Assembly: GCF_053078305.1 (NCBI RefSeq) | Contig: NZ_CP166879.1 | Length of the DNA stretch: 64,000 nt | Reading direction: 5' to 3' (one strand) | Part shown: positions 54,325-57,917 of the stretch, piece after piece | How the letters are laid out: each line of letters begins with the position of its first letter | How positions within the stretch are numbered: the stretch's first letter is position 1 | The notes under the pieces: model-generated | What the model was told of the DNA's origin: nothing | Databases searched by the model: none | Seen by the model: the letters and a program-made list of their open reading frames with translations, nothing else | Made by a program: the position numbers and the translations under genes

Positions 54325-56236
54325 TCACTCCTCCGGACAGCTTCGCTGCCAGTTCTTTCAGGGTTGGCCGGGTCGTCTCTTCTTCCCGGGATTTTGCCAG
54401 TACAGCCAGATCAAGCTGCCAGCGTTGCACGGACACACGTAATGCCGCGTAGGCATACACCAGGCAGTCCAGCGCTTCGTTACGCCGCTTTTTGTTATCC
54501 CACAGCAGACGCATCTTTCCTTTTTCCCACTTCTCCACCAGTTCTTCCGCCACCAGTTGCTGCGCCTCTGTCTGCGAAAAAATCTCCGGATCATCAGGAA
54601 AACGGATGGCATACGACGTGGCTTCATCCGCAGGCGTGGGATCGGCTTTCATACGGGCATAGAGAATTTCTTTTGCGGTGTCTGTCCCCACTTCACACAG
54701 ATACACGCCCCGCTGATTGCGGGTTTTTGGCATGGTGATCACCGGCTTGCCATAGACAGATGCGCCTTTTACCGGCAGCACCCGGAAAACACCGTGTTTT
54801 TTTGATCTCTGATAAACAATTTCACCATCGATCCCCCCGGTGTCCCAGCAGACACGGGAAATGGTCATTTCGGTACCGTCTGCATGGCGGTATTTTTTGT
54901 TGATCGCCGCATCCACACGTAACAGCGTCTCTTCCTCATCAGGACGCCCCATAATGATGATTTTATCCACCAGAAAGGCTTCCTCTCCCGGAGCCCATCC
55001 CCAGACATACATCTCAAAACGGTTACGCTGCGAGTCAATGCCCGCCGTCAGATAAACCACCCGGGCAGGCACCGCTGCCGTGTAATGCACGACCTTATCC
55101 ATCAGCACCTGGTGATCGAGTTTTTCGCCCACGGCCTCTTCCCAGGTCTCGCCCAGCGTGGTGTTCACAAAAGTTTTCAGGCCGTTGGGATCTTTCAGTG
55201 CATCCAGCCAGTCATAGACTATCTGTACCCAGGTGGTGAACGGACTGTACGCCGTCCAGATATGGAAAGTGATGGAGCGCGGCGGCGGAATTTCATTACC
55301 CGCAGCGCTGAAAAACGTCAGGCCGTCACGGGTCCACATGCCCGTGTTTTCACAGATCCACCGCCCGTTGCTCTGGTCAAGCTCAGACTGATGGATCACG
55401 CAGCCATGATGTTCACAGAGATAGAAAACGCTTTCGGGGCTGTCCTTCTCCCATTTAAGGCCAAAAGGCGTGGACTCATCGCCAAATTTCAGATACTGCT
55501 CCTCCCCACAGTGCGGGCAGGGCACATAAAAACGCATGAAATGCGCCGACTCGTTGGCCGCTTTTTCGATCTGGCAGGAGCCTTTTATTTTTGGCGTCGA
55601 GCCGCGAATGGATTTTGGCCATACCGAGCCCTCAATACGCTTATCCCCCAGCAGGGTTGGCGAGCCCTCTTTTTCGACATCCGGCTCGAACGAGGAAAGT
55701 TCGTCATAGCAGACCACGTCCACGGATTTTTCACGGTAGTTTTTTGCTGCCGCACCACCCAGGCACCAGAAGCCCACCCCCGATGAAAAGCGTTTCAGCG
55801 TGAGAGTATTGTCACGATGTTTACGACCCAGCCACGGGGAAAGATCTTTCAGGCATGGCACGTCCCGAATCGTCGCCTCCACGTGAGACTTCATAAAATC
55901 TTCAGCGGCAGAATCCGTGGGCTGAAAAAGCAGACTGTTTCGGGATTTATGCTCAATAAAATACCCGACCACCCCCAGCAACATCTTTGTATAGCCAACA
56001 CGGGCAGATTTAATCAGATTAACAGTGCGGATCTGATCATTCCCCATGCTGTTCATGATGGCGATCTGGAATGGCAGCGTTTTCCATTCTCCGTCACCGT
56101 ATGAGGAGTCTTTAGGCAAATAATAATTTTGATCAGCCCATTCAACTGCCGTCATCGGTACAACTCTGACCAGAGGCTGCAGCGCAACCGAAACGGCAGC
56201 CATCATATTATTCAGTTGTTGCTCTGATATATTCAT
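54308..56236 (-). CDS. A: terminase large subunit A
   Basis: 642 aa from MNISEQQLNN...; contains TAVEWAD.NYYLPK, GSTPK and CPHCGEEQYLKFGD motifs; track ORF extends 19 codons upstream. Confidence 0.94.
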   Translation of the reverse strand: MNISEQQLNNMMAAVSVALQPLVRVVPMTAVEWADQNYYLPKDSSYGDGEWKTLPFQIAIMNSMGNDQIRTVNLIKSARVGYTKMLLGVVGYFIEHKSRNSLLFQPTDSAAEDFMKSHVEATIRDVPCLKDLSPWLGRKHRDNTLTLKRFSSGVGFWCLGGAAAKNYREKSVDVVCYDELSSFEPDVEKEGSPTLLGDKRIEGSVWPKSIRGSTPKIKGSCQIEKAANESAHFMRFYVPCPHCGEEQYLKFGDESTPFGLKWEKDSPESVFYLCEHHGCVIHQSELDQSNGRWICENTGMWTRDGLTFFSAAGNEIPPPRSITFHIWTAYSPFTTWVQIVYDWLDALKDPNGLKTFVNTTLGETWEEAVGEKLDHQVLMDKVVHYTAAVPARVVYLTAGIDSQRNRFEMYVWGWAPGEEAFLVDKIIIMGRPDEEETLLRVDAAINKKYRHADGTEMTISRVCWDTGGIDGEIVYQRSKKHGVFRVLPVKGASVYGKPVITMPKTRNQRGVYLCEVGTDTAKEILYARMKADPTPADEATSYAIRFPDDPEIFSQTEAQQLVAEELVEKWEKGKMRLLWDNKKRRNEALDCLVYAYAALRVSVQRWQLDLAVLAKSREEETTRPTLKELAAKLSGGVNGYSR

Positions 56237-56714
56237 CGAGTAAATCCGGTAATTTATCCCCTGCCCGCGCACACTGATTTGCGCCCTTTGCAATAAGGGT
56301 TTTCAGATGGTCAATATGACGTGGCGTTAAATCCGGGAACTGTCGCTGCATGGATAACGGAATGGAATCAAGCGTACTGGACAATGCCATCGCCAGTTTG
56401 CTGAGGGCGAAAACGCAGAAGTCTGAATCGATGAGCTTACCTTCGGTTACCTGATTTTTAAGTTTTTGAGCTACAGCCTGTTCTTCTGTCAGTTCAGCTC
56501 TGGCCCGAAGCAGCCTTTCCTCCAGTTCTCCTCCGTCATCAGGTGTTCTCTGATTGTGTTGTCGCCGCTCGCGATCTATCTCCAGTACAGTTTTAACGTC
56601 ATATAAAACTTCCCTCCCCCGACGTTCAACAGGAGGAACGCCCCATTTATCAAATGCCTGAACAGAGATACCGATGGAGGAGGCCATATCACTTTTATTC
56701 AATAAAAAGGCCAT
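56208..56714 (-). CDS. Nu1: terminase small subunit Nu1 (start uncertain: 56714 or 56732)
   Basis: N-terminal HTH MAFLLNKSDMASSIGISVQAFDKWGVP aligns with lambda Nu1; about 200 nt downstream of cosN; track ORF 56208..56819 is over-extended. Confidence 0.8.
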   Translation of the reverse strand: MAFLLNKSDMASSIGISVQAFDKWGVPPVERRGREVLYDVKTVLEIDRERRQHNQRTPDDGGELEERLLRARAELTEEQAVAQKLKNQVTEGKLIDSDFCVFALSKLAMALSSTLDSIPLSMQRQFPDLTPRHIDHLKTLIAKGANQCARAGDKLPDLLDEYIRATTE

Positions 56715-56899
56715 CTCCTCTCCATAAGTCATCGATAAAAAGCGAAACAACAACCATGTGTTTTTGCAAAACCATTTGATATCATTGACATTTTTCGCAT
56801 TGACGACATCAAAACACATCGTAAGGTTGTTGTATTGATTTTATTTTCACCTTACTTATCAAGTAGATATACCAAACAATTAAACAACAACCACCCCCT

Positions 56900-56990
56900 C
56901 AAAAAATCTCATAAATAGTGAAAACGCGCGAGGTCGCCGCCCCGTAACGGGTCCATATGCCGGAAAGGACCCGAGAAAATGATAATGATT
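56900..56990 (-). other. cos site (cosN cohesive end GGGCGGCGACCT at about 56931-56942)
   Basis: Minus strand reads GGGTCCTTTCCGGCATATGGACCCGTTACG GGGCGGCGACCTCGCGCGTTTTCACTATTTATGA, matching lambda right-end/left-end cos sequence. Confidence 0.85.
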
Positions 56991-57201
56991 ATCAGTTGCA
57001 ACAAAATCCAGTTTCTTCCACCATCGCACCGGACCAGCGACCATGAGGGGACAACGCCGCGCTCCGTTAACGCGGTAAACCCCGGTGTGTATCGTTTTTG
57101 ATTATCCCCGCACACTCGCGCAGAGGAGTCTCCCTGTCGGGCTGCGGTCTCTGTTAATGCAGGAATACGGCGACAATACCGCGCATGGATAATAAGGTCG
57201 C

Positions 57202-57426
57202 TCAACACACTGGCTGTAATGCAGCCGATACCATGCGGCATTTAGCTGCATTCATCGTACACTCAACGGTTAGCTCTTCATTCGTGGCATTCACCTGAAA
57301 GGTCCGGGAGTGTAATTGCGTACATTTACCACTGAACGAACCTTCAACAAGAACACGACCACACTGCAAAATACGGAACGGAATTGTTCCCTGAAAAGGC
57401 TTTACGGTTACCAGTAATTTCTTCAT
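57202..57426 (-). CDS. hypothetical Cys-containing 74-aa protein between Rz and cos
   Basis: MKKLLVTVKPFQGTIPFRILQCGRVLVEGSFSGKCTQLHSRTFQVNATNEELTVECTMNAAKC...; CCGGAG SD; 24 nt after Rz stop. Confidence 0.4.
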   Translation of the reverse strand: MKKLLVTVKPFQGTIPFRILQCGRVLVEGSFSGKCTQLHSRTFQVNATNEELTVECTMNAAKCRMVSAALQPVC

Positions 57427-57449
57427 GCATTCTCCGGATAACAAAAATA

Positions 57450-57917
57450 CTAGTTAATACACTGAGTGCGGATATATTCCTTCGCCCCTTCCAGCTGCTT
57501 CTGCATTGTCATCAACCGTTCTCTGAGGATGAAATAATCCCGTTCAGCGGTGTCTGCCAGTCGGGGGCCGGTTGCATTATCCACGCCGGAGGTGGTGGGG
57601 GCTTCACGCACGGAGCCTGGACAGGTGGCTTTAACCCGCAGGCGCTTACGACCAGCGGCAACATCAGCACGCAGAGTTTCATTTTCAGCTCTCGCATCGG
57701 CTAATTCCCTCGAGTATTTAGCATCGAGCGCAGCAACATCGCGCTGGCGCTGCTGCATATCAGTAATGGTTGCGTTTGCCAGCTCCAGCTCTCTGGCTTT
57801 TTTATCGCGCTGCGCTTTGTAGGTGATGGCGTTATCGCGGTAATGATTCAGCCCCAGACTAAGCGCACCACAGGCCACCAGCAGGACAATAATCACCACA
57901 CACAGAACACGGTTCAT
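57450..57917 (-). CDS. Rz: i-spanin Rz
   Basis: 155 aa [43 protein letters not shown]..., lambda Rz-like. Confidence 0.93.
57512..57697 (-). CDS. Rz1: o-spanin lipoprotein Rz1 (embedded in +1 frame of Rz)
   Basis: 61 aa [25 protein letters not shown]...[27 protein letters not shown]; lipobox and proline-rich region. Confidence 0.88.

What the first reader, a model, noticed from the sequence alone, without database searches (positions are those of the whole stretch)
57202..57426. Cysteine-containing 74-aa ORF between the spanin genes and cos
A short ORF with five Cys residues and a reasonable SD follows Rz by 24 nt and is the last gene before cos on the late strand. Lambda carries bor on the opposite strand at this position. 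Function unknown.
Basis: seen in the sequence. Interest (0 to 1): 0.35.

Follow-up and report, generated by a model that had tools for sequence, protein, structure and literature searches.

The report
Conserved small prophage late gene, function unknown
The 74-codon ORF between the spanin genes and cos is a real, conserved prophage gene for a small soluble all-beta protein that databases already list as "hypothetical"; it looks like optional cargo, not a core lysis or packaging gene, and its cysteines are mostly not conserved.

Summary
The ORF lies at 57202-57426 on the minus strand and encodes 74 aa with five Cys. A GGAG Shine-Dalgarno sits 5 nt before the ATG. The ORF starts 23 nt after the Rz stop and ends 259 nt before an exact lambda cosN.

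It is a genuine gene. dN/dS against diverged copies is 0.17-0.30, variation is highest at third codon positions, and all 31 distinct alleles collected are intact. It is present in 1243 of 5426 complete E. coli genomes, where RefSeq calls it "hypothetical protein".

It belongs to PHROG family phrog_2571, which has no known function and no Pfam, NCBIfam or PADLOC match. AlphaFold2 gives a confident small beta-sandwich (pLDDT 90) with only generic fold neighbours.

Only Cys35 and Cys55 are conserved among close relatives, and no Cys is conserved across the wider Enterobacterales family. "Cysteine-containing" is therefore not its defining trait.

Relatives sit at three late-operon positions: after the spanins, between Q and the holin, and between tail genes I and J. 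They are often paired with a second small gene (phrog_4280) that this window lacks.

My best reading is a dispensable, late-expressed binding protein carried as cargo. A role in phage-host or phage-phage conflict is a low-confidence inference. The gene is already catalogued and of modest interest.

The parts
57202..57426 (-). ORF74 coding sequence: 74 aa plus TGA stop, a member of phrog_2571, predicted small beta-sandwich
   Evidence: ORF and translation; phrog_2571, E 1.7e-27; dN/dS 0.17-0.30; AF2 pLDDT 90, pTM 0.76; annotated as a hypothetical protein in RefSeq
57432..57435 (-). Shine-Dalgarno GGAG, 5 nt upstream of the ATG
   Evidence: Read directly (minus strand...TTATCCGGAGAATGC ATG)
57427..57449 (-). 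23-nt spacer between the Rz stop and the ORF74 start. Related prophages have either this spacer (63 loci) or a 4-nt overlap of the two genes (21 loci).
   Evidence: for the overlapping arrangement
57450..57917 (-). Rz (i-spanin), the gene immediately upstream in the same late operon
   Evidence: PF03245 Phage_lysis, E 5.9e-48
57512..57697 (-). Rz1-type embedded ORF (o-spanin) inside Rz in another reading frame
   Evidence: 61-aa [24 protein letters not shown]..., a lipoprotein-like N-terminus; assignment from the sequence and from knowledge of lambda Rz/Rz1
57914..58849 (-). Orphan N6/N4 DNA methyltransferase gene inside the lysis cassette; its end overlaps the Rz start by 4 nt. It is neighbouring cargo.
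   Evidence: PF01555, E 1.3e-32
56931..56942 (-). cosN, an exact match to the lambda 12-nt cohesive-end sequence, 259 nt downstream of the ORF74 stop
56943..57201 (-). Non-coding stretch between ORF74 and cosN, with lambda-like sequence next to cos. The scans find no terminator-like site here.
56208..56819 (-). Nu1-type small terminase subunit, the first gene after cos
   Evidence: PF07471, E 2.9e-21

Best explanation
ORF74 is a genuine protein-coding gene of the prophage late operon.

Shown:
- It lies on the late strand right after Rz/Rz1. It has its own Shine-Dalgarno, and in many relatives its start overlaps the Rz stop.
- The consensus scans find no promoter-like site in the region scanned (56700-58000) and no terminator-like site after its stop.
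- It is under purifying selection.
- It is predicted with high confidence to fold into a compact beta-sandwich of about six strands. It has no signal peptide, membrane segment or recognisable catalytic motif.
- It is present in some and absent from other phages that share the same Rz.
- It belongs to an Enterobacterales prophage family (phrog_2571). In other phages the same domain stands alone at other late-operon junctions, or is joined by a flexible linker to a helical domain.

Inferred:
- It is transcribed by read-through from the late promoter, together with the lysis and virion genes.
- The product stays in the cytoplasm until lysis.
- It acts by binding something, not by catalysis.

Most likely role (roughly 0.3-0.35 on its own): a dispensable cargo protein that helps in phage-host or phage-phage conflict, as counter-defence or exclusion. 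This rests on its position in a cargo hot spot. That hot spot also holds an orphan DNA methylase here, and in relatives an Acb2/Tad1-like gene, a nucleoside-deoxyribosyltransferase-like gene and antirepressors.

It is not a core lysis or packaging component.
For: Real gene:
- dN/dS is 0.26-0.30 against alleles at 64-76% protein identity, and 0.17 between two of those diverged alleles.
- Variable sites fall 28/18/44 by codon position, and all 31 distinct alleles are intact.
- Homologues differ by an in-frame 5-codon indel.
- It is found in 1243 of 5426 complete E. coli genomes and was annotated as a CDS in all 40 sampled rows.

Late-operon membership:
- Gene order and strand.
- A 23-nt spacer or a 4-nt overlap with Rz in 84 of 84 scorable loci.
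- No promoter-like site in 56700-58000 and no terminator-like site after the ORF74 stop.

Fold:
- AF2 pLDDT 90, pTM 0.76, all-beta.
- The same domain is confident (pLDDT about 95) inside the 198-aa YDC107_1 protein, behind a helical hairpin and a disordered linker.

Cargo behaviour:
- Only 28 of 423 phage records that share this region carry the ORF.
- Downstream it joins either lambda cos/Nu1 or ynfO-HNH-HK97-type terminase.
- Its GC is 45% against 54.5% for Rz.
- Distant members sit after spanins, between Q and the holin, or between tail genes I and J.
- In relatives a strong intrinsic terminator closes the cassette.

Neighbouring cargo:
- Methyltransferase in the window.
- Acb2_Tad1_hairpin gene next to a long form.
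- DUF4406/nucleoside deoxyribosyltransferase-like gene next to the YDC107_1 form.
Against: - There is no functional evidence of any kind. Every source calls the protein hypothetical.
- It matches no PADLOC, Pfam or NCBIfam model.
- The conflict role rests only on guilt by association in a variable region.
- Late expression is unusual for many anti-defence proteins.
- A subfamily tightly linked to tail gene J points to a virion-related role instead.
- Expression was not measured, and the promoter scan only finds near-consensus sigma-70 sites.
Confidence: 0.45

Rival explanations
1. Tail-tip or virion-associated accessory module. The beta-sandwich is a free-standing counterpart of the FN3/Ig-like domains that decorate tail-tip protein J. 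It would bind the virion, or a cell-surface glycan, late in infection or after release.
For: - PF24801 FNIII-A_GpJ is the only Pfam family hit by more than one family member (4 of 29, best E 0.02, below threshold).
- An 88-aa subfamily (HK225 gp20, SaltyDalty) lies between tail genes I and J in 18 of 18 IMG/VR loci and tracks the J N-terminus.
- One long form has a sub-threshold Phage_Tail_Tip match ahead of the domain.
Against: - Profile-profile tests against J found no homology: hhalign probability 0.15% and 4%, the latter over a 17-column motif only.
- The window protein itself has no Pfam hit.
- The E. coli subfamily is linked to Rz, not to tail genes, and combines with different packaging modules.
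- A 74-aa domain has no obvious anchor to a particle.
Confidence: 0.17
2. Prophage-expressed moron. The gene is transcribed in the lysogen from a weak internal promoter and benefits the host, for example by excluding superinfecting phages, as HK97 gp15 does.
For: - Relatives end with strong intrinsic terminators placed inside late operons: after HK225 gp20 (L101 3780-3799) and after the mEp237 gp60-gp61 pair (L100 3550-3569). This is the classical 3' mark of a moron.
- One relative sits beside Ail/Lom-like and BamE-like genes.
- ORF74 occupies the position that lambda gives to bor (established knowledge of the lambda map).
Against: - In the window there is no promoter-like site in 56700-58000 and no terminator after the ORF.
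- The start is 23 nt from, or overlaps, the Rz stop, which fits co-translation with the late genes.
- No promoter-like sites were found upstream of the relatives either.
Confidence: 0.15
3. Lysis accessory factor. The protein modulates spanin, endolysin or holin function or timing.
For: - It always lies immediately downstream of Rz/Rz1 in the E. coli subfamily, often translationally coupled.
- Most distant members also lie next to lysis cassettes.
Against: - It has no membrane segment, lipobox or signal peptide (sequence; the AF2 model is beta from residue 2). The holin, spanins and the endolysin's peptidoglycan substrate all lie in or beyond the inner membrane.
- It is absent from most phages carrying near-identical Rz.
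- It occurs with unrelated lysis systems, including an M15 peptidase and a GH108 enzyme, and in one subfamily among tail genes far from lysis genes.
Confidence: 0.08
4. Cysteine-dependent small protein. The five cysteines form a metal site or disulfides that define the function.
For: Five Cys in 74 residues in this allele. Cys35 is invariant and Cys55 nearly so among E. coli/Salmonella relatives.
Against: - Cys22 is Arg in most alleles.
- Cys62 and Cys74 vary within the close clade.
- No Cys column is conserved in the wider family, and the 198-aa YDC107_1 form has no Cys within the domain.
- The protein is cytoplasmic, where disulfides are unlikely.
- There is no CxxC-type spacing.
Confidence: 0.04
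5. Chance ORF, or a decaying fragment of a longer gene.
For: - Chance ORFs of similar length abound locally.
- The PHROG profile is 291 positions long and the ORF matches only positions 100-172.
- A 198-aa form exists.
Against: - Purifying selection and intact alleles.
- A confident fold.
- Most family members across Escherichia, Salmonella, Citrobacter, Yokenella, Yersinia, Providencia and Xenorhabdus are stand-alone proteins of 72-82 aa that start at the same Met-Lys.
Confidence: 0.02

Closest known systems
PHROG family phrog_2571, including RefSeq hypothetical proteins such as WP_000736383.1 and WP_000736096.1, phage mEp237 gp60 and the 198-aa YDC107_1 protein
   Same: Direct sequence membership: E 1.7e-27 to the profile, 96% identity to the WP_000736383.1 alleles recovered in L002/L003, and 100% identity to two IMG/VR contigs. 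It has the same position after Rz and the same predicted beta domain.
   Different: Nothing material. The window allele has Cys22 instead of the usual Arg22. It lacks the phrog_4280 partner gene that follows many distant members. The family has no assigned function.
Lambda bor (and the moron concept: lom, bor, HK97 gp15)
   Same: It occupies the same slot, between Rz/Rz1 and cos, that lambda gives to bor. It shows the same presence/absence behaviour among related phages. Relatives carry the terminator typical of morons (the lambda map and HK97 gp15 are from established knowledge).
   Different: It lies on the late strand, not the opposite strand. It has no lipoprotein signal and no sequence similarity to Bor. 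The scans find no promoter or terminator of its own in the window.
FNIII-A domain of tail-tip protein J (PF24801) and small carbohydrate-binding beta-sandwiches (CBM35/36/6, LecB lectins)
   Different: No significant sequence or profile homology. Foldseek finds nothing at E below 0.09. The calcium- and sugar-binding residues of the CBM and lectin families were not examined.

Membership tests
phrog_2571 (PHROGs v4, unknown function) | Significant match to the family profile HMM | tested here: met
   E 1.7e-27, 97 bits, residues 1-73 on profile positions 100-172. Distant relatives P0077, P0073 and P0075 and the 198-aa YDC107_1 protein hit the same profile.
Protein-coding gene (versus chance ORF) | Purifying selection, intact reading frame across diverged copies, and a translation start signal | tested here: met
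   dN/dS 0.17-0.30; variable sites 28/18/44 by codon position; 31 of 31 alleles intact; GGAG 5 nt upstream of the ATG.
Lambda Bor lipoprotein | Sequence similarity to Bor, a lipoprotein signal with lipobox Cys, and a gene on the strand opposite the late operon | tested here: not met
   tblastn of Bor (sequence recalled from memory) against the window gives nothing better than E 2.9. ORF74 is on the late strand and has no lipobox.
Classical moron (autonomous promoter-gene-terminator unit) | Own sigma-70 promoter upstream and an intrinsic terminator downstream | tested here: not met
   No promoter-like site in 56700-58000 and no terminator after the stop. Relatives in HK225 and mEp237 do have strong terminators. 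The consensus scan cannot exclude weak promoters.
Tip attachment protein J FNIII-A domain (PF24801) | Pfam gathering-threshold match or significant profile-profile homology | tested here: not met
Cysteine-rich metal-binding or disulfide mini-protein | Conserved cysteine pattern across homologues | tested here: not met
   Only Cys35 and Cys55 are conserved in the close clade. No Cys column is conserved in the wider family.
Phage lysis proteins (holin, antiholin, spanin, endolysin) | Membrane segment(s), a lipoprotein signal or a muralytic domain, and a match to the lysis families | tested here: not met
   No Pfam or NCBIfam hit. The sequence lacks a hydrophobic segment, and the AF2 model is a soluble beta domain.
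Known anti-phage defence proteins (PADLOC-DB 2.0) | Match to a defence-system HMM | tested here: not met
   No family at E up to 1 for ORF74. There were only noise-level hits for two long relatives. Anti-defence families were not covered by any library used here.
Two-gene cassette phrog_2571 + phrog_4280 | A ~72-aa MFV..LKADPDN..WVLGW gene immediately downstream | tested here: not met
   The partner is present after relatives in mEp237, L085-87, L090-92 and L096, but tblastn does not find it in the window.

The most novel reading that the evidence does not exclude
phrog_2571 could be an uncharacterised family of late-expressed soluble beta-sandwich effectors of Enterobacterales lambdoid phages. 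The domain would be presented either alone, on a helical stalk, or beside tail gene J. It could be a new counter-defence or exclusion protein. Alternatively it could be a free FN3-like module that binds tail-tip protein J or a surface glycan, for instance to keep progeny from re-adsorbing to debris. In many phages it would work together with the equally unknown phrog_4280 partner.
Probability: 0.12. Interest if true: 0.55.

Novelty: already known. Interest (0 to 1): 0.25.

Why it matters
This gene is present in about a quarter of complete E. coli genomes, including many Shiga-toxin phages, yet nothing is known about what it does. It sits in the late-operon slot where lambda carries the virulence-associated bor. 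Its relatives mark three recurrent cargo insertion points in lambdoid phages.

If it proved to be a counter-defence, exclusion or tail-associated factor, it would add a widespread small-protein family to that list and give the partner family phrog_4280 a context. As it stands, the finding mainly confirms that an annotated hypothetical gene is real, and corrects the idea that its cysteines define it.

Tried and rejected
- **Family libraries.** Pfam, NCBIfam and PADLOC gave nothing for the ORF.
- **Profile search of PDB sequences.** This gave only a marginal hit to the uncharacterised Pyrococcus protein PF1455 (2f40, E 0.025). I did not pursue it.
- **Descent from tail protein J.** I tested this twice and rejected it at the sequence level.
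- **Bor.** No similarity in the window.
- **Alignment-seeded locus searches.** Searches with the distant subfamily failed for lack of a conserved stretch. A single-protein scan with P0077 found nothing in IMG/VR.
- **Literature.** Searches for the RefSeq accession, the PHROG id and phrases about genes downstream of Rz found nothing relevant.
- **Phage L dec.** I had half-remembered that the decoration gene dec lies between the lysis and terminase genes. The phage L genome paper (PMC8022706) did not support this, so I dropped it as a precedent.
- **N15.** The 198-aa long form is in only two N15-like phage records, not a general N15 feature.
- **Cysteine proximity.** I could not check this in the model because coordinates are not exposed.

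Full report
**Observation**

The ORF runs from the ATG at 57426 to the TGA stop at 57202-57204 on the minus strand. It encodes MKKLLVTVKPFQGTIPFRILQCGRVLVEGSFSGKCTQLHSRTFQVNATNEELTVECTMNAAKCRMVSAALQPVC, which is 74 aa with five Cys. A GGAG lies 5 nt upstream of the ATG.

The gene upstream is Rz (57450-57917; PF03245, E 5.9e-48), with an embedded Rz1-type ORF at 57512-57697. The spacer between the Rz stop and the ORF start is 23 nt.

Further upstream on the same strand lie:
- an N6/N4 DNA methyltransferase (57914-58849);
- a lysozyme (59342-59875);
- a DUF1327 protein;
- a P21-type holin;
- DUF826;
- a SASA/NanS-type esterase.

Downstream, an exact lambda cosN 12-mer sits at 56931-56942. A Nu1-type small terminase, the large terminase and the portal follow. 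No bor-like sequence is present (the Bor query was recalled from memory).

**Is it more than chance?**

Length alone is not evidence. The 6-kb neighbourhood holds 65 ORFs of 30 aa or more, including a 110-aa ORF that crosses cos. The evidence is comparative.

- The protein has 55 database relatives in E. coli, Shigella and Salmonella at 55-99% identity.
- The DNA is found in 1243 of 5426 complete E. coli genomes. It was annotated as a CDS ("hypothetical protein") in all 40 rows sampled across the ranking (examples).
- Among 31 distinct alleles collected from fetched loci, all are intact. The 29 stand-alone 74-codon alleles and one 89-codon variant start at the same ATG; the remaining one is the domain segment of the 198-aa YDC107_1 protein. 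Several different DNA sequences encode the identical protein.
- Nei-Gojobori dN/dS is 0.26-0.30 against alleles at 64-76% protein identity, and 0.17 between two of those diverged alleles. Variable sites fall 28/18/44 by codon position.
- Homologues differ by an in-frame 5-codon indel.

This is a real gene.

**The cysteines**

- Cys22 belongs to a minority allele; most E. coli alleles have Arg there.
- Within the E. coli/Salmonella clade only Cys35 is invariant and Cys55 nearly so. Cys62 and Cys74 vary.
- No Cys column is conserved in the wider family. The 198-aa YDC107_1 form has no Cys within the domain.

The cysteine content is therefore not the functional signature.

**Family**

The protein matches phrog_2571, a family of unknown function (E 1.7e-27). 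The match covers profile positions 100-172 of 291. There is no Pfam, NCBIfam or PADLOC match.

An exhaustive profile search of 1.84 billion representatives found 49 proteins. Most are stand-alone proteins of 72-82 aa that start at the same Met-Lys. They share a signature of V6, F17, Q21, G33-K34, Y43, V45 and A68. Sources name Escherichia, Shigella, Salmonella, Citrobacter, Yokenella, Yersinia, Providencia and Xenorhabdus, and always call the protein "hypothetical".

A few relatives are longer:
- A 198-aa protein in the N15-like phage YDC107_1 sits at the same map position.
- Two forms carry C-terminal extensions.
- One form has an N-terminal extension with a sub-threshold Phage_Tail_Tip match.

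**Structure**

AlphaFold2 with the family alignment gives pLDDT 90 and pTM 0.76. The model has six beta strands and one short helix.

The 198-aa form is predicted as a helical hairpin, a disordered linker, the same beta domain at pLDDT about 95, and a disordered tail. The domain is therefore an autonomous module.

Fold comparison finds only generic sandwiches:
- Foldseek against PDB and BFVD finds nothing below E 0.09.

The link to J is a lead only. PF24801 FNIII-A_GpJ is the only Pfam family hit by several members (4 of 29), but always below threshold. Profile-profile tests against the window's own J and against a J-domain alignment gave probabilities of 0.15% and 4%.

**Genomic behaviour**

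In the E. coli subfamily the gene always follows Rz. There is a 23-nt spacer in 63 loci and a 4-nt overlap in 21 loci.

What lies downstream varies. It is either lambda cos plus Nu1, or ynfO, then an HNH endonuclease, then an HK97-type terminase. The gene therefore travels with the lysis module, and the recombination junction lies beyond it.

Only 28 of the 423 phage records that share this region carry the ORF. Its GC is 45% against 54.5% for Rz.

Distant members (27-45% identity) occupy three late-operon positions:
- After the spanins and before the terminase: mEp237 gp60, Yersinia prophages and an E. coli prophage with an M15 endolysin.
- Between antiterminator Q and the holin: a Providencia prophage and an E. 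coli prophage.
- Between tail genes I and J: HK225 gp20, SaltyDalty and 18 of 18 IMG/VR loci, where it tracks the J N-terminus.

Many members are followed at once by a conserved gene of about 72 aa, phrog_4280, also of unknown function. The window lacks it.

Strong intrinsic terminators close the HK225 gene and the mEp237 pair. In the window the scans find no promoter-like site in 56700-58000 and no terminator-like site after the ORF.

**How it most likely works**

Shown:
- It is a translated-looking, selected gene within the late operon, with translation signals next to or overlapping Rz.
- It encodes a soluble beta-sandwich without catalytic, membrane or export features.
- It behaves as mobile, optional cargo.

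Inferred:
- It is transcribed by late read-through, and the protein accumulates in the cytoplasm with the lysis and virion proteins.
- It acts by binding a partner.

My preferred role, at roughly one chance in three, is a conflict function (counter-defence or exclusion). The argument is that the slot it occupies collects such cargo. That cargo includes the orphan methyltransferase beside it, an Acb2/Tad1-like gene beside a long relative, and a nucleoside-deoxyribosyltransferase-like gene beside the YDC107_1 form.

The main rival is a tail-tip or glycan-binding accessory role. It is supported by the subfamily between I and J and by the J/CBM-like fold. It is weakened by the negative homology tests and by the gene's linkage to Rz here.

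A prophage-expressed moron role and a lysis-modulator role remain possible but less likely. A cysteine-based function and a chance or decayed ORF are effectively excluded.

**Comparison with what is known**

The gene is a near-identical member of an already catalogued family, 100% identical to two IMG/VR contigs and about 96% to the RefSeq WP_000736383.1 alleles recovered in L002/L003.

It is a positional analogue of lambda bor, but on the other strand and unrelated in sequence.

I found no paper on it. Searches for the RefSeq accession, the PHROG id and descriptive phrases gave nothing relevant.

**Verdict**

This is a correct but ordinary observation: a real, widespread, already-annotated hypothetical prophage gene. 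Its interest lies only in the unknown function of a common family.

Noticed in passing
window 57914-58849 (-): A 311-aa N6/N4 DNA methyltransferase (PF01555, E 1.3e-32) sits inside the lysis cassette between the lysozyme and Rz. Its end overlaps the Rz start by 4 nt. Related prophages carry an antirepressor or a frameshifted adenine methylase at this spot.
   Followed up: partly
L100 3306-3527 (mEp237 gp61); L085 5341-5559; L091 449-670; L096 2766-2981: A conserved gene of about 72 aa (phrog_4280, MFV..LKADPDN..WVLGW..SHRLGSDDF, unknown function) directly follows phrog_2571 members in several unrelated prophages. This suggests a two-gene cassette. It is absent from the window.
   Followed up: partly
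L101 3495-3761 (HK225 gp20) and L103-L120: An 88-aa phrog_2571-like gene is wedged between tail genes I and J in 18 of 18 loci. It overlaps the I stop by 4 nt and is followed by a strong intrinsic terminator (L101 3780-3799) just before J. It co-varies with the J N-terminus while I diverges.
   Followed up: partly
L097 131-1147: A 225-aa long form of the family is followed by a gene with an Acb2_Tad1_hairpin (anti-CBASS sponge-like) Pfam hit, and then by a Nu1-type terminase gene. The long form has an N-terminal part with a sub-threshold Phage_Tail_Tip match.
   Followed up: no
L004 3109-3420 (YDC107_1): A DUF4406 / nucleoside 2-deoxyribosyltransferase-like gene lies between the spanin gene and the 198-aa phrog_2571 protein in this N15-like phage.
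   Followed up: no
window 59912-60898 (-): A 328-aa ORF between the holin and the lysozyme matches DUF1327 only over its first 74 residues. The long C-terminal part has no family match.
   Followed up: no
window 57363 (codon 22 of ORF74): The window allele has Cys22 where most E. coli alleles have Arg22. This single change turns a four-Cys protein into a five-Cys one.
   Followed up: yes
window 56909-57241 (-): A 110-aa ORF overlaps the end of ORF74 and runs straight across cosN. It is treated as a chance ORF, since it would be cut in virion DNA.
   Followed up: no
window 61799-63766 (-): A 655-aa SASA/DUF1737/DUF6645 protein (NanS-p-type sialate O-acetylesterase) lies upstream of the holin, as is typical of Stx-phage-like late regions. 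No stx gene was looked for.
   Followed up: no
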